Of a stretch of DNA of 64,000 bases, positions 33,871-43,072 are shown one piece after another (positions within the stretch are counted from its first letter, which is position 1; every line of letters begins with the position of its first letter). Location of the stretch: the IMG/VR virus record IMGVR_UViG_3300028581_000026, positions 22,554 to 86,553 of that record; one strand, written 5' to 3'. A program made the translations under genes and the position numbers. The notes beneath the pieces are model-generated. The model had not been told where the DNA came from. It made no database searches and saw only the letters and a list, made by a program, of their open reading frames with translations. Origin of the DNA: a virus.

Positions 33871-34446
33871 TCACAAGTTTTGACTTATGTTTGAACCTTT
33901 CATATAAACAGCACCAGTATTTGATACCAATTGTTCAATCTTATTATTGAGTTCAGTTATTATCTTATCCTTATCACCCATTTCCCTTCTCAATTTCATC
34001 AAGGTTTCTTGTAACATAACCATCTTTTCATTTGGTTTTTCAACCTCCTTGATTACCTCAACCTGGACAATTTTTTCCACTATCTTCTCCACTTCCACCG
34101 GTACTTGGACAATTTTTTCTACTATAACCTCATTTGTGGAAAATATTTTCTGCTCAATTGGGACTTCTTTGATTATTTCAACAATCTTCTCAACCTCTTT
34201 AATGACCTCGATTGGGATCTCTTTAATCGTCTCTTTTTCCACATATTTAATAACCTCAATCGGAATTTCTTTCTCAACATATTCAATAATTTTTTCTGTG
34301 TTATTACCAATTAAACCATATCTCTCAATATCATATCCCTTCTTAAAACATTTCTGAAAGAACTTATCAACATCTTCAATGTTATTTAACTTACAATAAT
34401 CAGTTAAATCCTTTTGGTTTTGTTTATTGAGGGTTAGTTTGTTCAT
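33871..34446 (-). CDS. Protein with EKIVE/VP repeats and coiled coil
   Basis: EVIKEVEKIVEIIKEVP...EKIVQVPVEVEKIVEK. Confidence 0.7.
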   Translation of the reverse strand: MNKLTLNKQNQKDLTDYCKLNNIEDVDKFFQKCFKKGYDIERYGLIGNNTEKIIEYVEKEIPIEVIKYVEKETIKEIPIEVIKEVEKIVEIIKEVPIEQKIFSTNEVIVEKIVQVPVEVEKIVEKIVQVEVIKEVEKPNEKMVMLQETLMKLRREMGDKDKIITELNNKIEQLVSNTGAVYMKGSNISQNL

Positions 34447-35257
34447 TATAGTTATATATTATTATCTCCTGACTATTCTTGGAGTTCTTATTTCTTGCCA
34501 CCTTCTCATAATCACCTTCCAATATCTTATGATTAAATCCATCATCCAATAACTTATAAATAATCTCAGACTTCTCGTTGTTCTTATGTTCCCCCAATAC
34601 ACCACTCAACATAAATGAATGACCCATATTGTTTAATTCAACAATATAATCATACAACTGACTTTCTTTTGTCTTTGACCAATAAGCATTATATCCCGCC
34701 TCAGTATTTGTATATGGGGGATCAATATAAATCATACTGGGATTTTTGGGTTTAATCTCACTAAAATCCTTGGATATAAAATAAATCTTATCTTTGTGGT
34801 TGGAGATATGTCCAACAAATTCATTCACCTTCTTCTCGGTTGAAGCATTCCAGGTTCTCTTTCCAAATGTCTGATTAAATTCAAAACTCTTATTGAACCT
34901 CATCATATTGTTTGTACAAGATAACATTAATGCCCATAACTTCTCTGGGGACTTATTGGTATTGAAACTTTTTCTCAATTCCATAAACCCCTCAGAGTCA
35001 TCCTTATTGACCAATACGGACTTTGTTTTGGTTATGATAGATGTTGAATCATTAACCAAATCTTTGTGGATTCCAACCAATTCTTTTATAATGTCATTGA
35101 CCAATATCTTTTCATATCGGTCAACAACATTGGTATAGACCGAACCTCCACCACAAAATAAATCAACGAAATATTTCTTGGTGTAATCGAAGTTTGGAAT
35201 TAGTTGGTCTAATAACTTAAACTTTGAACCGGTGTAATTGAAGGGGGTATTAACCAT
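34424..35257 (-). CDS. dam: Dam-like (D12 class) N6-adenine DNA methyltransferase
   Basis: PFNYTGSKFKL, VDLFCGGGSV, MRFN...FN..FG, YIDPPY; start re-called to ATG 35257. Confidence 0.9.
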   Translation of the reverse strand: MVNTPFNYTGSKFKLLDQLIPNFDYTKKYFVDLFCGGGSVYTNVVDRYEKILVNDIIKELVGIHKDLVNDSTSIITKTKSVLVNKDDSEGFMELRKSFNTNKSPEKLWALMLSCTNNMMRFNKSFEFNQTFGKRTWNASTEKKVNEFVGHISNHKDKIYFISKDFSEIKPKNPSMIYIDPPYTNTEAGYNAYWSKTKESQLYDYIVELNNMGHSFMLSGVLGEHKNNEKSEIIYKLLDDGFNHKILEGDYEKVARNKNSKNSQEIIIYNYNEQTNPQ

Positions 35258-36029
35258 TTGCGAGTGTTTCATTTTCGTTAAGAATGTCTTCATATGAATT
35301 AATAACAAATTTAAGGAAAGGTCTTGGATTATCCAAATCCACAAAGGAATATTTGTTATTTATTACATCATAAATTCCAAATCCGTGTTTCTTTATATTC
35401 TCCCCATAGTTTTGTTGTACAACTGAACCTATCATATATGCTTTCTTACCATTTGGAATATCAAAAATTTGACGTTTGTGTATGTCTCCACATAGAATTA
35501 GGTCACACCCATCAAACTTATCCACTTCATATCCTGTCTCAAACTTATATCCAATGTCGGTATATAAACCAACAATGGGTCCGTGAAATAATCCAATCTT
35601 TAATCTGTCTGACTTCTCTATAATTGGTGGGATGTTGTGTTCAAATAATGAATAAACAACCCAATCTATATTCTCGTCTTGATATACACCTCTATCCTTG
35701 TAATAAACAATATTGTCATTGTCCATTGATTGAATGATGGGGGTTAATGTGTCTAGTCTTGATAAGTTGTTTTCAAGCATGTCATGGTTGCCTACAATTA
35801 TAATTGTTTTGGCTATCTTTGAACATTCATCCAATACCCACCTTACCATTTCAATAAGTTCAGGACTGACTTGGTTTTTACTATGGACTAAATCACCTGT
35901 GAATACCACTCTATCAGGTTTTATTTCCTTGAATTGATTGAACATATCCGTAAGGATTGTTTTATATAGGTCGTGGTCTTTAATTAATCTCAAATGTAAA
36001 TCTGAGAAATGAACCAATTTTTTAATCAT
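35250..36029 (-). CDS. sbcD: SbcD/Mre11 (gp47-like) metallophosphoesterase nuclease
   Basis: SDLH, TGDL, GNHD, FHG, GDIHK, GSVVQQNYGE. Confidence 0.92.
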   Translation of the reverse strand: MIKKLVHFSDLHLRLIKDHDLYKTILTDMFNQFKEIKPDRVVFTGDLVHSKNQVSPELIEMVRWVLDECSKIAKTIIIVGNHDMLENNLSRLDTLTPIIQSMDNDNIVYYKDRGVYQDENIDWVVYSLFEHNIPPIIEKSDRLKIGLFHGPIVGLYTDIGYKFETGYEVDKFDGCDLILCGDIHKRQIFDIPNGKKAYMIGSVVQQNYGENIKKHGFGIYDVINNKYSFVDLDNPRPFLKFVINSYEDILNENETLANG

Positions 36030-36235
36030 ATTAATTACAATTTTATTTTTGAATCTTGAAGGTTGTGTTGTTTAATACCTTGATTTTGTTGGGGTTGGGG
36101 GGTACTGGATATATTTCTTAGTTATGTGTAAGTGTGGTTCTGTCCTCCGAATTAACTTCCGTGTTAGAAAATTTTAGAAAAAACCCACCGCACATTTTTA
36201 ATAATTTTTTAAGAACACAAAGATAAGGAAATTTT

Positions 36236-36643
36236 TTATTTTAATTCAAAATCCAGGAAAGACATATTATATAAATTTAACTTATATTTTCCTGATGGAT
36301 TAAACAATCTTTCAATTATCTCACAGGATTCCTTCTGTAATTCCACCATAAAGATTTGATTTTCAATTATATGTTTCCATCTTTTTCCTGGATTAGGTTC
36401 CCAGTCTTTAAGACCTTCCATTAATTTTTCAATTAGAATGATTGAATATTGTCCAAAACCCGCACAAGGATCAAGAAATGTAGATGTTGGATCCTTAAAT
36501 AATTCAGGATCAATGTTAGATACATGTTCCTCAACTAAATAAAATTCAGTAAAAACTTCACCAAAAGTATCAGCATGTTCTTTCCTATACTTGGTCAGTT
36601 TATTAATTTCATCTTTTATTTTCTTAATACCTTTTATTGCCAT
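36236..36643 (-). CDS. N6-methyltransferase SAM-binding half (no NPPY)
   Basis: GEVFT, TFLDPCAGFGQY, IFMVELQ; ends before the catalytic motif. Confidence 0.75.
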   Translation of the reverse strand: MAIKGIKKIKDEINKLTKYRKEHADTFGEVFTEFYLVEEHVSNIDPELFKDPTSTFLDPCAGFGQYSIILIEKLMEGLKDWEPNPGKRWKHIIENQIFMVELQKESCEIIERLFNPSGKYKLNLYNMSFLDFELK

Positions 36644-36645
36644 TT

Positions 36646-36921
36646 TTATTTACATTCTTTTAAGTCTAAAAGATCATTCTCTTTTGATTGATCACCATCC
36701 GTTCTTAAATATTTATCTTTTACAATATGAACTTTTGTTCCCTCTGATGTTTTAATTTCTACTTCATTTTCATTCTTTTCTAAATCTCTAACTTCTTTGA
36801 TGAAATCTTCTTTTTTCTTTCTACTATATTTAGTTTTGTCTGTATCACTTACAACACCAACTTTTTCAATAACACCATCTTTGTCTTTATTTACACAATA
36901 AATTTCTTTTACAATTTTCAT
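36646..36921 (-). CDS. DUF3892 family protein
   Basis: C-terminal KYLRTDGDQSKENDLLDLKEC. Confidence 0.75.
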   Translation of the reverse strand: MKIVKEIYCVNKDKDGVIEKVGVVSDTDKTKYSRKKKEDFIKEVRDLEKNENEVEIKTSEGTKVHIVKDKYLRTDGDQSKENDLLDLKECK

Positions 36922-36931
36922 AATTTTATTA

Positions 36932-38296
36932 TTATTTTTTAATTAATTTTAATCTTTCACATCTTTCTTCAATAGTTTGTATGTCTTCCTCTGTTAGATT
37001 TAGATATTTGTAAATGTTTTCATCATCTACTTTCTCTAATTTTGAAAAATCAATATGTGGAACTAGAGATAGTGTAGATATTGTAATTGTCTGTTTATTT
37101 TTTATAAGAGAAACACAAAATCTGAAAACCTTTGTATTAATATAATTAAAGAAATTAATCATATCATTCTTATTATTGAAATTCCAATTAACTAAACTTT
37201 GATTACAAATTTCCCCAACATTTCCAATGAGAACTCTACCCATGGAATATGGATTGGCACCATATTTTGATGTTGTGAATATTTTATAAAGATTGAAATC
37301 ATTCTTGATCCTATCAGTTAAATATTCATTTGGTAAATATTTAACAGAACCTTTTTGTTCAGAAACATGACATTTCACACAATGTCCATTATCAATATCA
37401 ATAAGTCTATTATCATTTGATGATAAATTATAATATGATTGAGGTCTAAAATTCAACATATCTAATTTATCAAATTTTAAAAATTTATCCAAAACCTTTA
37501 ATTCATTTGTATTTAATTCATATGGTAAAAAGTTCAAAGCAACTTTTCTATTATAAGCAACACCATTTAATTCAAATGTATCTTTTGTGTTTTCATTATC
37601 AATAACAAAATATGAAACACCTCCTGATATTTCAGTTCCCTTAAACGGATTTCTGGAATAATGAACAATTTTATCAACATTATAACCATTAATCATCTTT
37701 TCCCTGAATTTTTTATGTGATGGAAGGTTCATCCAATTAGATTTAGTAATCATAATTACATATCTATCCGCTAACTCAAAAGCCTTATCTACGAATTCTG
37801 GATATATACTAGAGGATCTGTTTCCACCTTCGCCACGAACTCCGTTATATGGTGGATTTGTTATAACACAAGTAAATTTCTTTTTCAATTCATCTAAATT
37901 ATTTTTTTCATCAAGGATGTTATAATTATATCTATTAAAATCCAATAAGTTTTTAATTTTTAGTATCTTTTGAACCTTTATCATAGTTGATTTAGCAATA
38001 TCTACCTGTGCTTTTGAAATATCATTTCCAGCAATTTTACTATGTATAAATTTATTTCTTTCTTCATTATCTGGAATTATATTTTCTAAAAAATTCCAAA
38101 ATTCTAAATATAAACACAACAAAAATGTTCCTTTCCCACAACAAATATCTAAATATGAAAAATTAACATTAAATTTTTGAGAAATCAAATCTCTACAAAC
38201 AGAAATAGGAGTCATCGTTGATGAATCCGAACTTTCTAATTTATCTATTTGCTTGAATAGGATATCTATTCGCAATTGTTGTTCTTTTGAAATCAT
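36932..38296 (-). CDS. Eco57I-like N6-adenine methyltransferase with C-terminal TRD
   Basis: MTP, YLDICCGKGTF, VITNPPY, GTEISGGV, IYKYLNLTEEDI. Confidence 0.9.
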   Translation of the reverse strand: MISKEQQLRIDILFKQIDKLESSDSSTMTPISVCRDLISQKFNVNFSYLDICCGKGTFLLCLYLEFWNFLENIIPDNEERNKFIHSKIAGNDISKAQVDIAKSTMIKVQKILKIKNLLDFNRYNYNILDEKNNLDELKKKFTCVITNPPYNGVRGEGGNRSSSIYPEFVDKAFELADRYVIMITKSNWMNLPSHKKFREKMINGYNVDKIVHYSRNPFKGTEISGGVSYFVIDNENTKDTFELNGVAYNRKVALNFLPYELNTNELKVLDKFLKFDKLDMLNFRPQSYYNLSSNDNRLIDIDNGHCVKCHVSEQKGSVKYLPNEYLTDRIKNDFNLYKIFTTSKYGANPYSMGRVLIGNVGEICNQSLVNWNFNNKNDMINFFNYINTKVFRFCVSLIKNKQTITISTLSLVPHIDFSKLEKVDDENIYKYLNLTEEDIQTIEERCERLKLIKK

Positions 38297-38298
38297 TT

Positions 38299-38811
38299 TT
38301 AGAAATTTAGTATTTTACACACATACAACTTATCAATATACTTTTGATCTTTCATTATATTATAAACCATAATGTAATTAAAAGCACTCCACTCGATAGA
38401 TTTACCGATCATTTTTGTATTAACTTCACCTGTGTTAATATCAATTGTTGTGTCAATTTGTATATTAGATGCTTTTGATGTTAGCAATCGTTTAGTATTA
38501 TTAATAAAAGATGAAATTTCTTTTTTCTTAAAAATCAATTTAGAAGTATCAAATCTTTCCAGTTTAGCCAAAAATTCATCCAAATCAACTCTTTTAGTTT
38601 CCACAAAATCGGTAAATTCTTTTGAAATCTTAATATTTGTAAAATCTTCAATTTTTGTTTCAGTTCCATCATTAATTCTATTTTCAGATATTAATGGAAA
38701 AGATTTTAATATTCTATGAAATTCAACATTGCGATTGAAAAATAAATATCTAATACCAAAATATAATGATGGTATTCCAAAAAGTCCTAAAATTGTTAAA
38801 ATTATCTCCAT
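38299..38811 (-). CDS. Hypothetical protein with N-terminal TM helix
   Basis: MEIILTILGLFGIPSLYFGIRYLFF; inside the cassette operon. Confidence 0.7.
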   Translation of the reverse strand: MEIILTILGLFGIPSLYFGIRYLFFNRNVEFHRILKSFPLISENRINDGTETKIEDFTNIKISKEFTDFVETKRVDLDEFLAKLERFDTSKLIFKKKEISSFINNTKRLLTSKASNIQIDTTIDINTGEVNTKMIGKSIEWSAFNYIMVYNIMKDQKYIDKLYVCKILNF

Positions 38812-38813
38812 AA

Positions 38814-40964
38814 TTAGTTATATAAATATTCGTTGTTAATATTGAATAAATCAATGCTATCATTAATCTTTTCTTCTAAAATAAATCCTTTATCTAAAAG
38901 AACTTTGAAAGTTTCAACGCCAATTCCTGTTTGTGTCTTAAATTCTTCTTTATAGTTGAATATATCATTTATGTTTGAAATTTTATCCACCACAAAAAGA
39001 AAGTTCTTAAATCTGTTTGTAATCAATCTTGCTTTGATTATATAATCTTCTATTTTTTCAACTTCACCACTTTTACCTTCACTAACTTTTGTTCTTTTAG
39101 AATTTTTGCCCCTACCTTTTGATGATTTATTTAATTCTGTTTGTTCTTCTTTTGTTAAATTACCATGAATATTTTCTAATATTTCCTTAATATCATCATC
39201 AAATTTTCCTATATTTAACATAGATAAAGAACCAAAATAATCAGTTAAAATTCTATTAAAATGTTCCAATAAATCATCACTTTTCATCTTAACAATAGAA
39301 GCACCATCAACACTAAATATCGGCATACATTTTAACATTTCAGAACTAAATTTAGATGGTTCATATCCAGTATATTTAGATATAATGGTTGAATATTCAA
39401 TATAACATTTCAACATTCTATCTGAGTTAAAATCAACTATATGAACTTTCTCTTTCAAAAATTCACCATAATTGCTAATCCAAGGACTGCCGATTCTCAT
39501 TCCTGTTTGAAACCAATTTTCAGCAGAATATCCATCATCTAACATCCAAACAGATTTCCATTGTTTTACGGTTGAACCAGTATTCCATCTACCACAAGAT
39601 AATGTAATTGTCTTACCAACTTTATTGTAAATTCTATTTTTAGTATCTTCTAAATCCTTTACTTTATCACCAGAAGCATTAACTACTTTATAATCTTTCC
39701 AATAAGGATGTTCAGACAAAACTTTTTCAATAGTATCACAATTTATAATTTGTGGTAAATACCAAAACATATGATTAGTTATTAAACCATTCATACTTGG
39801 ATCTAATTTAATCCATTCCAAAAAATCATATACTAATTTTTCATTAGAAAATAATTTGTAATTTGTAATTTTTTCTTCCTCTGAATAAAATTTCAAGAAT
39901 TTATTTACTAAACTATTATTATACTTACACAAGAAAACTTCAAATTCAGGTAATGAACGATAAATGTCTGTTTCCCAACCACTTTCTTTCTCCAATCTTC
40001 TTTTTAATTGTTCTTGTAGATATGTCCAAGTAAAAACTTCTTCTTTATCATATTTTCCATCTAAAATAGCCTTAAATGGAGTTCCTGATAAGGCAAGTTC
40101 ATAATCATAATTTAATTTTGATAAGAAGTTTTTAGATCTTTCAGTTTCATAACCATAGTGCATTTCATCCGAAATAACTAAATCAATTCTTTGTTCAAAA
40201 ACTGGATTCCATTTGTCTTTATGTTGTTTTATAATATTTCCTTCATCATCTTTAACTTCTCCCAGAGCATCCTGAAATGAAGCAAATATAATTTGAACTT
40301 TATCAGTTTCTTCAAATTTAACTTCATCTAATCCAATTGATTTTTTGAAAACAAAATCTTTGAATTCAATATGATCTATATCATCTTGCCAACTTTCAGC
40401 AACACCATTTGGTTTATATGTTAAAACAAGAACTCTTTTGAATTCCATATTTTTAACAATTCTATAAGAAATATGACATTTACCAGAACGCATTTTAGCA
40501 TTAACCAATGCTCTTACAATCTTTCTTTTTTCGGTTCTACTAATATTCAATTTGAATAATTTACAAACACCATCAACAATATCTTTTTGTTCTTCTCTTG
40601 GTGGATAAGTTTTCAATTTTTTTGTTCCATATAGAATATCATTAACTTCTCTTGTTGCTTGCTCTATTGTATCAAATTCAAAAAATTCTCTATCTCTATC
40701 CTCTCTATATTTAGGAAAACCTCTTTTTTCAAGTTCAGGATGGACTTCTTTATCTGATAAAGGTGAATTTTTCCAAACTTTTAGTATAGTTGGCTTTTCA
40801 AAAACAAAAGTCCCATCAAGTGTTTCAACTCGGACATCAGCATCAATTGCTTCTCCAACTTTAATAATACAACCTCTTCTTAATGGTTCTAATCCGTGTT
40901 CTGTTCTATCCAAATCAGCAGGATATTGTAAAGTTTTAGTTGATATAAGGTATAAATCTTTCAT
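38814..40964 (-). CDS. T5orf172/GIY-YIG-like nuclease fused to SF2 (ResIII-like) helicase; putative restriction subunit
   Basis: IKVGEA...R...DKEVH...REFF; PREEQ, NAKMRSGK, DEMHYG, LSGTP, QTGMRIGSP. Confidence 0.88.
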   Translation of the reverse strand: MKDLYLISTKTLQYPADLDRTEHGLEPLRRGCIIKVGEAIDADVRVETLDGTFVFEKPTILKVWKNSPLSDKEVHPELEKRGFPKYREDRDREFFEFDTIEQATREVNDILYGTKKLKTYPPREEQKDIVDGVCKLFKLNISRTEKRKIVRALVNAKMRSGKCHISYRIVKNMEFKRVLVLTYKPNGVAESWQDDIDHIEFKDFVFKKSIGLDEVKFEETDKVQIIFASFQDALGEVKDDEGNIIKQHKDKWNPVFEQRIDLVISDEMHYGYETERSKNFLSKLNYDYELALSGTPFKAILDGKYDKEEVFTWTYLQEQLKRRLEKESGWETDIYRSLPEFEVFLCKYNNSLVNKFLKFYSEEEKITNYKLFSNEKLVYDFLEWIKLDPSMNGLITNHMFWYLPQIINCDTIEKVLSEHPYWKDYKVVNASGDKVKDLEDTKNRIYNKVGKTITLSCGRWNTGSTVKQWKSVWMLDDGYSAENWFQTGMRIGSPWISNYGEFLKEKVHIVDFNSDRMLKCYIEYSTIISKYTGYEPSKFSSEMLKCMPIFSVDGASIVKMKSDDLLEHFNRILTDYFGSLSMLNIGKFDDDIKEILENIHGNLTKEEQTELNKSSKGRGKNSKRTKVSEGKSGEVEKIEDYIIKARLITNRFKNFLFVVDKISNINDIFNYKEEFKTQTGIGVETFKVLLDKGFILEEKINDSIDLFNINNEYLYN

Positions 40965-41139
40965 TCTTTATTTATAAAATAAGTTAATATCCAAAGTGTA
41001 AAAATACAAAAAATTCCTTAAAATAAAAAATTTAAGGACACAAAGATTAAAAATTATTAAAAATTTCCCTCCCTTCTTTTTTCTAAAATTTTCTTTCAGT
41101 TCTACGATTAAACATTCTGCCTCAATAATTCACACCTAC

Positions 41140-41269
41140 ACATAACAAGGTGTATATGTAATGTGAGGTTCAGTAGTTAATTTAACATTTGTTCTTCTAA
41201 TTAGGTTCATCGGTTAAGTCAAGTTTAGTGTTTCAAATCTCACACTACATATACACCCAACCGTTATAA
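41140..41269 (+). other. attC-like recombination site (130 bp)
   Basis: R'' ACATAAC (41140-46); arms GGTGTATATGTAATGTGAG (41149-67) and CTCACACTACATATACACC (41239-57), 18/19 complementary; R' GTTATAA (41263-69). Confidence 0.75.
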
Positions 41270-41313
41270 AACATTATAAACGACCACCCCATTCAAATTT
41301 TATATCATCAACA

Positions 41314-42087
41314 TTATAGTGATAAGTTGAAAACTTCATTAAATAGTTTATTTAAATTCTCTACTTTCTCATTATCAACAACTCCATTATCAATATATAA
41401 GTTCCTATTTACTTCAATCATTATACTATAAACATTTTTATTGTTGTAATAGTTAATTGGGACAATTGTACCAAAATAAGGGGTATCTATTTCAATGGAA
41501 TAACCTTTTTCTTTAATAAAAGAAAACAAAAAATTACTTAACCAATTAGGGGTATGGATTTTATCCGTACCTAAACAAAAATTAGGTCTTATTGATTCTT
41601 GTACTAAATCAGATTTGAATGGGGTATCAGAATATGAATGACAATCAATTATGATAGCTAAACCATTCTTTTCAATTTTTTCTTTAACCAATGAACTTAA
41701 AGAATTGTGATGTTTTTTATAATATTGTTCAAATATAATTTCTTTACTTGTCGTTTCTCTAAGTAGTTCTCCTGAATCAGTTTTGGTGTAATAAAACCCC
41801 CTTCCATACTGGAACATAATTTCATTTTCATCGTCAAGTCTTTCAACATCACAAAAAACTCGACTATATGGGAATATTATTTTACTTGTCCCTTCAATAT
41901 TAAAAATTTCATCTGTCGCAAAATCCGTTAATAAATCAATCTCTTTATTAGTTAAATCGATATTAACATAGTCAGTTAAATATTCTTTTGGTATTTCAAT
42001 TTTGGAATGTGGAATATGAAAAATAAATGAGTCTTTAATGACATCACTAAATAAATTTATACCCAATAGGGTATTACCCTTTATCAT
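41314..42087 (-). CDS. N-formylglutamate amidohydrolase (HutG-like)
   Basis: HIPH, TD..TD, SRVFCDVER, YYKKHH, IDCHS, FCLGT, PYFG, IMIEVNR. Confidence 0.88.
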   Translation of the reverse strand: MIKGNTLLGINLFSDVIKDSFIFHIPHSKIEIPKEYLTDYVNIDLTNKEIDLLTDFATDEIFNIEGTSKIIFPYSRVFCDVERLDDENEIMFQYGRGFYYTKTDSGELLRETTSKEIIFEQYYKKHHNSLSSLVKEKIEKNGLAIIIDCHSYSDTPFKSDLVQESIRPNFCLGTDKIHTPNWLSNFLFSFIKEKGYSIEIDTPYFGTIVPINYYNNKNVYSIMIEVNRNLYIDNGVVDNEKVENLNKLFNEVFNLSL

Positions 42088-42793: not shown

Positions 42794-43072
42794 TTATGTT
42801 GTCGGTTTTTCATCGATTAAATACTTGAATCGGCTATTCCCAAATTCATCTATAATCATTACCCTCCCATCAATGTCTGTTTCTTCAAATATTAATTCGT
42901 TTTTATAATAAGTTGAAGTATATACCTTAGTACCTTCATTATTTCCATGTCGACATTCAACTCTACTTGTACCATCATCCCATAATAATATTGTAATTGT
43001 GTATGAACAATTTGGAAATCGTTGTATAATATCATTTTTTACTAATTCTATTTGTCTTTCAATTTCAATCAT
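42794..43072 (-). CDS. Hypothetical protein
   Basis: 92-aa ORF. Confidence 0.6.
   Translation of the reverse strand: MIEIERQIELVKNDIIQRFPNCSYTITILLWDDGTSRVECRHGNNEGTKVYTSTYYKNELIFEETDIDGRVMIIDEFGNSRFKYLIDEKPTT

What the first reader, a model, noticed from the sequence alone, without database searches (positions are those of the whole stretch)
36121..41269. Integron-type gene cassette carrying a defence-like module, sitting in a jumbo phage with no integrase in view
Seen in sequence: the 5-gene block 36236-40964 starts after G|TTATGTGTAAGTGTG (36121) and ends with CACACCTACACATAAC (41131-41146), 15/16 reverse-complementary. That end runs straight into a 130-bp imperfect palindrome (18/19-bp arms; the arm mismatch is G:T on the bottom strand) closing at CCG|TTATAA (41263). 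Established: an integrated integron cassette begins with its own TTRRRY, ends with a complementary RYYYAAC plus attC, and recombination occurs at G|TT. Cassettes can integrate at non-att GTT-type sites, and many encode anti-phage functions. Inference: a 5142-bp host cassette was inserted into the phage between sbcD and the hutG-like gene by a host tyrosine recombinase, giving the phage an RM-like weapon or shield. Cassette traffic from a Bacteroidota host into a lytic phage may be undescribed. Caveats: canonical extrahelical bases are not obvious, and the cargo is antisense to the attC.
Basis: partly seen in the sequence, partly recalled or inferred. Interest (0 to 1): 0.88.

Follow-up and report, generated by a model that had tools for sequence, protein, structure and literature searches.

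The report
Restriction-like operon in phage gene cassette
A five-gene restriction-modification-like operon in a large lake-water phage is packaged as one oversized mobile gene cassette of an integron-like system that phages themselves carry, and it sits at a docking site whose recombinase gene is missing here.

Summary

The hairpin (41142-41267, minus strand) belongs to a large family of phage stem-loops with xTAAC and GTTAx cores and a fixed 3-nt bulge. In other phages these form co-oriented arrays ending beside a 265-268-aa Xer-like tyrosine recombinase that lacks the IntI insertion.

In arrays the arm after each hairpin pairs with the arm before the next hairpin. This held in 21 and in 202 cassettes, with 0 of 20,000 permutations each. 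The window's two "ends" are exactly such a pair. Homology breakpoints pile up at the 5' core.

The cassette abuts a diverged attI-like site fused to sbcD. No recombinase is present in this 29%-complete record or in 3 relatives.

The cargo (T5orf172 nuclease-helicase, Eco57I-type methylase, three small genes) occurs in other phage contexts without the framework.

So the cassette reading is supported. The "bacterial integron, host origin, host enzyme" part is not. This scan noted the same family before on other DNA. I found no paper describing it; Qi et al. 2023 is nearest.

The parts
36061..36120 (-). attI-like docking site fused to the sbcD leader. It starts right after the cassette's last core. 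This version has diverged.
   Evidence: It aligns with 12 recombinase-linked sites over about 48 nt (TAAC-TA..ATAT..AACCC..AAAATCAA; A4). The relative L024 has a near-canonical copy at the same place, scoring 18.4 bits against 14.6-20.5 for family sites. The window itself scores only -2.8 bits ungapped.
36121..36125 (-).
   Evidence: Homology with L017/L020 stops at window 36125. Contigs in runs X18 and X20 break at 36119-36121.
36126..36136 (-). 5' arm (T version), partner of the 3' arm at 41131-41141
   Evidence: 11 of 12 positions pair with the 3' arm (10 Watson-Crick, 1 G.T). The same arm type is found in many other cassettes.
36137..36195 (-). Conserved cassette end module: G-rich motif, block B', motif M
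   Evidence: Near-identical end modules close other cassettes in L140 and L142, each followed there by the next hairpin.
36194..36244 (-). Blocks C' and D' flanking an outward promoter-like core (TATCTTTG) that points to sbcD
   Evidence: The blocks are exact inverted copies of 41049-41064 and 41018-41033, but the core keeps a direct orientation. Promoter function is inferred from a recalled Bacteroidota -7 consensus and was not tested.
36236..36643 (-). c5, 135 aa, small conserved partner (phrog_4376; weak likeness to methylase N-terminal parts)
   Evidence: Present in 13 of 19 loci that carry c1; several of the remaining loci end before the place where c5 would lie.
36646..36921 (-). c4, 91 aa, DUF3892; optional member of the module
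   Evidence: Pfam E 4.8e-9. Found in 2 of 19 c1 loci.
36932..38296 (-). c3, 454 aa, Eco57I-type N6-adenine DNA methyltransferase
   Evidence: PF07669 E 1.8e-15. PglX / type IIG-like hits in PADLOC and NCBIfam.
38299..38811 (-). c2, 170 aa, unknown; optional member
   Evidence: No family found. Found in 2 of 19 c1 loci.
38814..40964 (-). c1, 716 aa, T5orf172 (GIY-YIG-like) nuclease plus SF2 helicase
   Evidence: PF04851 E 2.2e-10. PF10544 scores 23.9 bits against a cut-off of 20 on residues 1-125. Some homologues are fused to an Eco57I methylase domain.
40965..41130 (-). Conserved cassette start module / leader: motif M, block B, G-rich motif, blocks C and D with a promoter-like core
   Evidence: L153 carries the same hairpin type and the same about 170-nt leader in front of a different cargo.
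41131..41141 (-). 3' arm (G version)
41142..41267 (-). attC-like hairpin: ATAAC core, GTT bulge, long stem with G.T wobbles, variable loop, GTTAT core
   Evidence: Fold. Family membership. Covariation. A covariance model built from the 90-nt subfamily finds it at 26.2 bits, E 0.0019, and nothing else in the window below E 0.7.
41314..42087 (-). Upstream neighbour: N-formylglutamate amidohydrolase-like gene, part of the same low-GC insert
   Evidence: PF05013 E 7.5e-33. Absent from 43 relatives. GC.
35250..36029 (-). Downstream neighbour: sbcD-like nuclease, a backbone gene
   Evidence: phrog_100. Conserved in 43 relatives.

Best explanation
The 5142 bases from 36122 to 41263 are one oversized cassette of a phage-borne, integron-like gene-cassette system.

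Cassette layout in this family, read in gene orientation:
- an attC-like hairpin (xTAAC core, 3-nt bulge, long wobble-containing stem, variable loop, GTTAx core)
- a 3' arm
- a leader with its own promoter
- the cargo
- an end module
- a 5' arm complementary to the 3' arm
- the next xTAAC core

If such a cassette were circular, its two ends would meet and rebuild one long folded site. In other phages these cassettes stand in co-oriented rows. Each row ends at an attI-like site 25-45 nt upstream of a small Xer-like tyrosine recombinase gene.

The inferred mechanism is that this enzyme cuts at the 5' core on the folded gene-sense strand and exchanges it with the attI-like site or with another hairpin.

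Here the cargo is a restriction-modification-like operon: a T5orf172 nuclease-helicase, an Eco57I-type methylase and three small genes. It most likely serves against competing phages or other foreign DNA.

The cassette occupies the position next to an attI-like site that is fused to sbcD. The recombinase gene is absent from what is sequenced. The cassette was therefore most likely delivered or exchanged by an enzyme supplied in trans by a co-infecting phage.

Shown: the sequence family, the arrays, the enzyme's position, the arm logic, the breakpoint clustering and the shared framework.
Inferred: the chemistry, the enzyme-site pairing, single-strand involvement, the cargo's function, and the route and timing of arrival.
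For: 1. Family. In 46 aligned elements, 26 pairs are predicted and 12 show compensatory changes. Three G.U pairs and the GTT bulge are invariant. Across the stems of 83 distinct elements there are 1455 Watson-Crick pairs, 270 G.T and 14 A.C, so the gene-sense strand is the folded one.

2. Arrays beside a recombinase. 3 of 5 hairpin-bearing records have one PF00589 gene. In each of the three a co-oriented row ends next to it, with 13, 5 and 6 hairpins. Fourteen distinct family sites of the form [A/C]TAAC|TA..TATAT lie 36-46 nt before the recombinase start.

3. Arm logic. The arm after hairpin k pairs with the arm before hairpin k+1 at a mean of 8.86 of 12 positions. Within one element the mean is 5.46, and after permutation 6.38 (n=21; 0 of 20,000 permutations reach the observed value). 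A separate set of 202 cassettes gave 8.93 against 6.10 (0 of 20,000). The window's arms pair at 11 of 12.

4. Breakpoints. Of 129 homology breakpoints between loci, 47 fall in a 19-nt window at the 5' core. That window holds 0.6% of the bases.

5. Framework. The window's leader recurs with other cargo in L153. Its end module recurs in L140 and L142.

6. Hot spot. All 43 relatives keep g281 and sbcD, and none has the cassette. L017/L020 and L024 carry other cassettes joined at the same core to the same leader.

7. Composition. GC is 24-28% inside 36.0-43.0 kb and 30-33% outside.
Against: - No recombinase was found in the record, which is 86.5 kb and 29% complete. None was found in 3 relatives that are 64-82% complete.
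- No empty-site or circle-junction contig was seen in four runs, all of them Logan contigs.
- The window's attI-like site scores poorly without gaps: -2.8 bits, rank 18 of 948 TAAC sites.
- At 5142 nt the cassette is more than ten times the median length of 419 nt. The longest cassette seen under a 3.5-kb filter was 2789 nt.
- None of the 19 other loci with this cargo shows the framework.
- Only one hairpin exists in the record, so there is no array here.
- The conserved leader and end modules would also allow ordinary homologous recombination.
- 59 of 129 breakpoints lie away from any hairpin.
- No recombination has been demonstrated for this family.
Confidence: 0.7

Rival explanations
1. There is no dedicated enzyme. 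The hairpins, leaders and end modules are conserved regulatory sequences (terminator plus promoter). Cassettes are shuffled between co-infecting phages by ordinary homologous recombination at these sequences, as with the PeSLs of T4-like phages.
For: The leader and end modules are 75-170 nt long and shared between cassettes with different cargo. They hold promoter-like boxes. 59 of 129 breakpoints are not at a hairpin. The window's phage clade shows no recombinase. PeSL shuffling and mini-circles are documented (abstract of PMC2839356).
Against: Breakpoints concentrate about 60-fold at a 19-nt window on one side of the hairpin. Each cassette's two arms match each other and not their neighbours. 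That pattern predicts circular intermediates joined at the core. Rows end at a conserved site directly before a tyrosine recombinase gene in 3 of 3 examined arrays.
Confidence: 0.15
2. This is the first reader's version: a classical bacterial integron cassette with an attC site, moved from a Bacteroidota host into the phage by a host IntI or Xer enzyme at a secondary GTT site.
For: The cores read AAC...GTT and the folded strand is the bottom strand in integron orientation. Qi et al. 2023 report that IntI1 recombined 5 of 6 attC sites taken from virulent phages, including one from a Polaribacter phage (section 3.4). Four of the 8 MAG contigs carrying these hairpins are labelled Flavobacteriales or Bacteroidetes.
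Against: The associated enzymes lack the IntI-specific segment and miss the curated IntI cut-offs (152-159 bits against 265). The cores fit RYYYAAC/GTTRRRY only at 5-6 of 7 positions. Hairpins are common on viral contigs and rare in 185,579 species genomes. The neighbouring site is attI-like, not random. Close relatives of the cargo are on viral or unassigned contigs.
Confidence: 0.04
3. The stem-loop and arms act only at the RNA level, as terminator, processing site or mRNA end-pairing. The permuted arms are a by-product of that role.
For: There is a strong G.U bias on the sense strand (270 G.T against 14 A.C). Hairpins lie between genes and are co-directional with them.
Against: The 3' arm lies upstream of the cassette's own promoter-like boxes, so a transcript from that promoter would not contain it. 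An RNA role does not predict breakpoint clustering at the core, or rows ending at a recombinase gene. No Rfam family matches.
Confidence: 0.06
4. The block is a transposon-like element bounded by about 125-bp terminal inverted repeats.
For: Long modular inverted repeats bracket the five genes.
Against: None of the five ORFs hits a transposase family. No target-site duplication is visible at the ends. The 'repeats' are the family's generic start and end modules, found around unrelated cargo. Two spacers and the promoter core are in direct orientation, not inverted.
Confidence: 0.02

Closest known systems
Integrons (IntI integrase, attI, attC-bounded cassettes)
   Same: One folded, imperfectly palindromic site per cassette, with AAC/GTT cores and extrahelical bases. 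Cassettes stand in co-oriented rows. A fixed docking site lies next to a tyrosine recombinase of the Xer/IntI branch. The bottom strand (in integron orientation) is the folded one. Cargo includes defence-type genes; on that last point I saw only the abstracts of 10.1101/2024.07.02.601686 and 10.1101/2024.07.02.601719 in a listing.
   Different: The enzyme is 265-268 aa and lacks the IntI-specific segment. There is a 3-nt one-sided bulge and fixed G.T wobbles in place of the canonical spacer and extrahelical pattern. ORFs point towards the recombinase, and each cassette carries its own leader with promoter-like boxes. The cassette ends carry long complementary arms. The system is carried by phages.
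attC clusters without an integrase (CALINs) in virulent phages (Qi et al. 2023, PMC9892861; abstract and section 3.4 read)
   Same: Hairpin recombination sites and small cassettes, often methyltransferases, in lytic phage genomes with no integron integrase. One example is a Polaribacter phage. In its genome I found two hairpins of this same architecture flanking a methyltransferase gene.
   Different: The paper treats them as bacterial integron parts carried by phages. It does not mention a phage Xer-type enzyme: 0 occurrences of 'Xer'. The window has a single site, not a cluster. Whether my two hairpins are the sites they assayed could not be checked, because the supplements are closed.
PeSLs, promoter-early stem-loops of T4-like phages (Arbiol et al. 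2010, PMC2839356; abstract read)
   Same: Small promoter-plus-stem-loop modules in hyperplastic regions of large lytic phages. They bracket non-essential genes, drive modular shuffling and yield mini-circles.
   Different: PeSL exchange is homologous recombination between direct repeats. Here there is a linked tyrosine recombinase, an attI-like site, per-cassette complementary arms, and core-precise borders.
CTX-phi integration through a folded single-stranded site by host XerCD (as discussed in Escudero et al. 2016, PMC4792948; passages read)
   Same: A Xer-type enzyme without an I2-like domain acts on a folded single-stranded hairpin of a phage.
   Different: CTX-phi integrates a whole phage genome into a host dif site with host enzymes. 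Here gene cassettes move within and between phage genomes, and the enzyme is phage-encoded.
pdif modules of Acinetobacter plasmids (recalled; only listings seen)
   Same: Gene modules thought to be moved by Xer-type recombination.
   Different: pdif modules are bounded by two inverted double-stranded Xer sites and rely on the host XerCD. Here there is a single folded site per cassette.
Type ISP / type IIG-like restriction-modification enzymes (comparison for the cargo)
   Same: A nuclease, an SF2 helicase-type motor and an Eco57I-type adenine methylase. Some homologues fuse all three in one chain.
   Different: Here the parts are split over separate genes, with a T5orf172 nuclease and three small partners. 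There is no match to a defined multi-gene system in PADLOC. Activity is untested.

Membership tests
Integron (classical) | IntI integrase carrying the integron-specific additional segment | tested here: not met
   There is no PF00589 gene in the record. The recombinases beside arrays of this hairpin family score 152-159 bits on TIGR02249 (cut-off 265). They align to IntI4 (2a3v) in two pieces, with 30 residues opposite 78.
Integron (classical) | attC site: R''/R' boxes RYYYAAC / GTTRRRY, L boxes, extrahelical bases, variable loop | tested here: inconclusive
   AAC/GTT cores, a one-sided 3-nt bulge and a variable loop are present. The cores fit the consensus at 5-6 of 7 positions. L boxes were not identified. 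The consensus itself is recalled from memory. The IntegronFinder and HattCI models are not on hand.
Integron (classical) | attI site next to the integrase gene, receiving cassettes | tested here: inconclusive
   An attI-like site precedes the Xer-like gene in 14 distinct loci. In the window a diverged copy precedes sbcD instead.
CALIN (cluster of attC sites lacking an integrase) | At least two attC sites close together and no integrase | tested here: not met
   There is one hairpin in 86.5 kb.
Phage hairpin-cassette family (this scan's integron-like arrays) | Hairpin with xTAAC ... GTTAx cores, GTT bulge and wobble-rich stem on the gene-sense strand | tested here: met
Phage hairpin-cassette family (this scan's integron-like arrays) | The arm after the hairpin is complementary to the arm at the cassette's own far end | tested here: met
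   The window pairs at 11 of 12 positions. The family mean is 8.9 of 12, against 6.1-6.4 after permutation.
Phage hairpin-cassette family (this scan's integron-like arrays) | Row ends at an attI-like site directly upstream of a small Xer-like recombinase | tested here: not met
   The attI-like site is present but fused to sbcD. There is no recombinase in the record or in 3 relatives. The record is 29% complete.
PeSL regulatory cassettes | Direct repeats of promoter plus terminator stem-loop flanking the shuffled genes | tested here: not met
   The flanking modules are mainly inverted. Only the 15-nt promoter-like core and motif M are direct.
TIR transposon | Transposase gene and target-site duplication | tested here: not met
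   No transposase family was found among the five ORFs. No duplication is visible at the ends.
Restriction-modification system (cargo) | Nuclease and cognate DNA methyltransferase encoded together | tested here: met
   T5orf172 plus helicase. Eco57I-type methylase. The two genes are adjacent in 16 of 19 loci and fused in some homologues. Enzyme activity cannot be tested here.

The most novel reading that the evidence does not exclude
Large lytic phages of freshwater Bacteroidota run their own integron-like gene-capture system. It uses folded hairpin sites with extrahelical bases, handled by a plain Xer-type recombinase that lacks the I2 segment held to be needed for such chemistry. Its cassettes can be as large as a complete, self-promoted restriction-modification operon. 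They are traded in trans between unrelated phages, including phages such as this one that keep only an orphan docking site. If so, this is a living example of the 'Xer-like enzyme plus folded site' stage that Escudero et al. 2016 discuss when they speculate on a viral origin of integrons.
Probability: 0.5. Interest if true: 0.9.

Novelty: new variant of a known kind. Interest (0 to 1): 0.75.

Why it matters
Integrons are the textbook gene-capture device of bacteria. How their integrase and their folded attC sites arose together is an open problem: Escudero et al. 2016 call it a chicken-and-egg paradox and speculate about a viral origin (passages read).

A phage-borne system with folded sites, extrahelical bases and an attI-like site, but a simple Xer-type enzyme, would make that question testable at the bench.

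For phage biology, it would show that whole defence-type operons can move between large lytic phages as single cassettes. It would also show that a phage without the enzyme can still be a recipient.

For genome annotation, the conserved leader and end modules give a simple signature for finding such cassettes in metagenomes.

Tried and rejected
- Near and distant DNA searches of cultured phages found nothing, using the 8.6-kb region and the hairpin.
- The FGase neighbour has no relative on viral contigs by pattern search. An empty site with FGase joined to the sbcD leader could therefore not be looked for.
- There is no tRNA or tmRNA in the window and no Rfam family.
- The short core ACAYATAAC is not enriched in the window: 4 copies, about what composition predicts by my own estimate. 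It is therefore not a general regulatory motif of this phage.
- A covariance model of the 90-nt subfamily found no second hairpin in the window. The next best match is 15.2 bits, E 0.72.
- Read laying on four runs, all Logan contigs, gave no contig joining 36121 to 41264 and no circle junction. Contigs drop rare variants, so this is not evidence of absence. The joints at 41161-41245 are other family members with shorter loops.
- Habitat labels of the low-share runs were not used.
- The Polaribacter Freya phages differ in length upstream of their integrase. My scanner found no ATAAC hairpin there, so I make no claim about them.
- The ungapped PWM does not support the window's attI-like site. 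The claim rests on the gapped alignment and on synteny with L024. The PWM included one Freya outlier, and the scores of the true sites are not leave-one-out.
- L022 and L046 were not held and so were not searched.
- The output was cut, so the number of loci with a recombinase is a lower bound.
- Supplementary tables of Qi et al. 2023, which hold the attC coordinates, are closed. They may settle whether my P12002L hairpins are the sites they assayed.
- That the system is undescribed rests on four full-text searches and on reading parts of three papers. Subscription journals are not covered.

Full report
**1. The observation**

- The left end (GTTAT plus an 11-nt arm) is at 36121-36136 on the plus strand.
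- Its reverse complement, with one difference, is at 41131-41146.
- The palindrome runs from 41142 to 41267, with 22-nt arms that are 91% complementary.
- Five ORFs on the minus strand fill 36236-40964.

By itself the 16-mer pair is not beyond chance under a loose test. It is, however, only the outermost block of a roughly 125-nt modular inverted repeat. The further blocks match 18/18, 16/16 and 16/16, in the same order on both sides.

Contigs from a run of another study bridge both junctions without a difference (X13 records 1 and 6).

**2. The setting**

The window is part of an 86.5-kb viral record estimated to be 29% complete.

The sbcD-like gene next to the block has 61 related loci on viral contigs. 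In the 43 closest of these, the backbone g302-g281-[variable stretch]-sbcD-g191 is kept. None of them has the five genes, the FGase-like gene, the 137-aa gene or the Dam-like methylase.

Three arrangements are seen among the relatives:
- In the L012 type, window position 43063 joins 36030 directly. The whole 7 kb between them is therefore an insert relative to that type. It is also lower in GC: 24-28% against 30-33%.
- In L017/L020, homology with the sbcD leader runs up to window 36125, exactly the cassette's last core. Beyond that lies different cargo.
- L024 has a third content at the same place, including two hairpins of the same kind.

**3. The hairpin is one of a large family**

In gene orientation the element reads: ATAAC, GGTTG, stem, loop, stem, TT, GTTAT.

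Of 128 matches, 85 have the complete structure, in size classes of about 50, 90, 120 and 125 nt.

In an alignment of 46 elements of the 90-nt class:
- 26 pairs are predicted, and 12 carry compensatory changes.
- Three G.U pairs and the 3-nt GTT bulge are invariant. The ends of these elements are invariant by ascertainment; the inner stem is not.

Across the stems of 83 distinct elements there are 270 G.T pairs against 14 A.C. The gene-sense strand is therefore the one under selection to fold. The window's hairpin also folds better on that strand as DNA, with the outer core stem formed.

No Rfam family matches.

**4. Arrays, recombinase and docking site**

Notes from earlier stages of this scan said such hairpins form rows beside a small Xer-type recombinase. 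I tested this on loci of my own.
- Three of five hairpin-bearing records contain one tyrosine recombinase gene.
- In each of the three, a co-oriented row of 13, 5 or 6 hairpins ends directly upstream of it. One of these records is a complete 288-kb phage.

The enzymes have these properties:
- They are 265-268 aa, with PF00589 and PF13495.
- They score below the curated cut-offs of XerA, XerC/D and integron integrase.
- They align end to end with an archaeal XerA-like structure.
- They align with IntI4 only in two pieces, with 30 residues opposite 78.

Fourteen distinct family sites of the form [A/C]TAAC followed by TA..TATAT lie 36-46 nt before the recombinase start codon.

**5. What a cassette is in this family**

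In arrays, the 12 nt after hairpin k pair with the 12 nt before hairpin k+1.

| Set | Own-cassette pairing (of 12) | Within one element | After permutation | Permutations reaching observed |
|---|---|---|---|---|
| 21 cassettes | 8.86 | 5.46 | 6.38 +/- 0.36 | 0 of 20,000 |
| 202 distinct cassettes from other loci | 8.93 | 6.14 | 6.10 +/- 0.11 | 0 of 20,000 |

A cassette therefore begins with its hairpin and ends with an arm that matches its own beginning. This is what is expected if cassettes pass through a circular form joined at the 5' core.

Among 129 homology breakpoints between loci:
- 47 lie in a 19-nt window at that core, which holds 0.6% of the bases
- 11 lie at the 3' core
- 12 lie inside hairpins
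- 59 lie elsewhere

**6. The window's block fits this plan**

Its 3' arm (41131-41141) and the arm at its far end (36126-36136) pair at 11 of 12 positions. By eye, the sequence just upstream of the hairpin's own ATAAC does not pair with the 3' arm; my script's figure for that flank was taken 3 nt off register.

The rest of the 'terminal inverted repeat' is the generic framework of one cassette class:
- The leader after the hairpin (motif M, block B, a G-rich motif, promoter-like boxes) recurs in L153 in front of an unrelated gene.
- The end module recurs in L140 and L142, followed there by the next hairpin.

Two features are direct rather than inverted:
- Motif M occurs on both sides and again inside loops.
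- The 15-nt promoter-like core near the cassette's end faces sbcD.

I cannot explain either of these.

**7. The docking site**

After the last core, the window continues with a sequence that aligns over about 48 nt with the recombinase-linked sites (A4).
- The copy in the relative L024 is near-canonical: 18.4 bits, inside the range of true sites.
- L017 scores 2.4 bits.
- The window's own copy scores -2.8 bits without gaps. It is a decayed version.

Here the site is followed by sbcD, not by a recombinase.

No PF00589 gene is in the record, nor in three relatives of 192-241 kb. Two of those relatives show only chance-level hairpin-pattern matches and the third none. The clade therefore looks like an occasional recipient, not a platform holder.

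**8. The cargo**

- c1 has a T5orf172 nuclease domain (23.9 bits, cut-off 20) and an SF2 helicase.
- c3 is an Eco57I-type adenine methylase.
- Some homologues fuse nuclease, helicase and methylase in one chain.
- c2 and c4 are optional, and c5 is usually present.

The core module occurs at 71-91% identity in one viral locus and 17 metagenome loci, plus one more distant locus at about 36%. In these it sits in unrelated surroundings, with a different leader and no hairpin or arms. In L193 it lies next to the homologue of another window gene.

The operon therefore circulates among phages and has here been taken into a cassette framework. At 5142 nt the cassette is more than ten times the median cassette length of 419 nt.

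**9. Host or phage?**

A strict hairpin pattern found 8 stretches among 185,579 species genomes. All are MAG contigs: four labelled Flavobacteriales or Bacteroidetes, three from one Methanolobus bin and one Saccharibacteria. Several hold dense arrays. They may be phage DNA binned with cells.

This points to Bacteroidota as hosts. It gives no support for a chromosomal integron as the source.

**10. Mechanism and rivals**

The best reading (0.7) is site-specific cassette exchange by the Xer-like enzyme at the 5' core of the folded sense strand. In this case the enzyme would be supplied in trans.

Homologous recombination at the shared modules (0.15) surely also happens, and it could explain part of the pattern. 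The remaining rivals are:
- a classical integron cassette (0.04)
- a purely RNA-level role (0.06)
- a transposon (0.02)

Each fails on specific tests, listed under the rivals.

**11. Known relatives and novelty**

The geometry matches integrons when read on the other strand: recombinase, docking site, G|TT, cassette, folded site, with the bottom strand folded. The differences are:
- the enzyme lacks the IntI segment
- the site has another bulge pattern
- ORFs face the enzyme
- each cassette brings its own leader

Qi et al. 2023 reported attC clusters in virulent phages and showed that IntI1 recombines several of them (section 3.4). I found two hairpins of this architecture around a methylase gene of their Polaribacter phage, but I could not match coordinates with theirs. 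Their text does not mention a Xer-type enzyme.

Four full-text searches found no description of a phage-encoded system of this kind.

This scan has noted the family many times on other DNA. What this window adds is a multi-gene defence-type cassette and an orphan docking site in a recombinase-less jumbo-phage clade.

**12. Limits**

- No recombination event was observed.
- All read evidence is from contigs.
- The record is a fragment.
- Promoter calls rest on a recalled consensus.
- The loci were ascertained through the hairpin pattern itself.

Noticed in passing
window 34424-35344 (-): A D12-class (Dam-like) DNA methyltransferase lies between sbcD and g191 only in this phage. It is present in 0 of 43 relatives. 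This is a second insertion right next to the cassette, with no hairpin seen.
   Followed up: partly
window 41095-41118 and 36137-36165 (minus strand); also hairpin loops: A roughly 22-nt motif M (AATGTT.AAT..G.A.AA.TGAAC-like) stands in direct orientation just outside both arms. It recurs inside hairpin loops and is seen in many cassettes. It may be an accessory-protein site.
   Followed up: partly
window 36194-36244 versus 41018-41064: Blocks C and D are exact inverted copies at the two cassette ends. The 15-nt promoter-like core between them keeps the same orientation at both ends, giving an outward-facing box towards sbcD. This is unexplained.
   Followed up: partly
L117, L119, L169, L219, L220, L225 (cassette starts); window 40950-40964: Many cassettes with the same arm type begin with the same codons (MKDLKQFIKT...). 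c1 begins MKDLY.
   Followed up: no
L226 (Polaribacter phage P12002L, NC_028924) 38034-38937: The methyltransferase gp54 is flanked by two hairpins of the same architecture, with xTAAC and GTTAC cores. These are probably the attC sites assayed with IntI1 by Qi et al. 2023. I could not verify this.
   Followed up: partly
L216/L217 (Polaribacter phages Freya_10 and Freya_1): Ten isolates of one phage differ by 0 to about 4.1 kb of small ORFs directly upstream of a homologous integrase (36% identity). My scanner found no ATAAC hairpins there.
   Followed up: partly
L212 4439-4624 (minus strand; G003, 288-kb phage): Four copies of a 36-nt repeat, spaced 53-66 nt apart, lie beside an ORF that looks TnpB/Cas12-like by eye. 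This may be a mini CRISPR-like array in a jumbo phage.
   Followed up: no
L203 6001-8727: In this metagenome contig the c1 homologue is in two pieces and the c3 homologue is in fragments. The copy of the operon is probably decaying.
   Followed up: no
window 41268-41313 (minus strand, after the FGase stop): A G-rich motif like the one in cassette end modules lies only about 20 nt before the core, and no arm or B block is present. The FGase segment may be a decayed older cassette.
   Followed up: no
L017 9111-9140: A core is followed by the first bases of a hairpin stem, which run straight into a 3'-arm-like sequence. It looks like a hairpin deleted internally across a short repeat.
   Followed up: no
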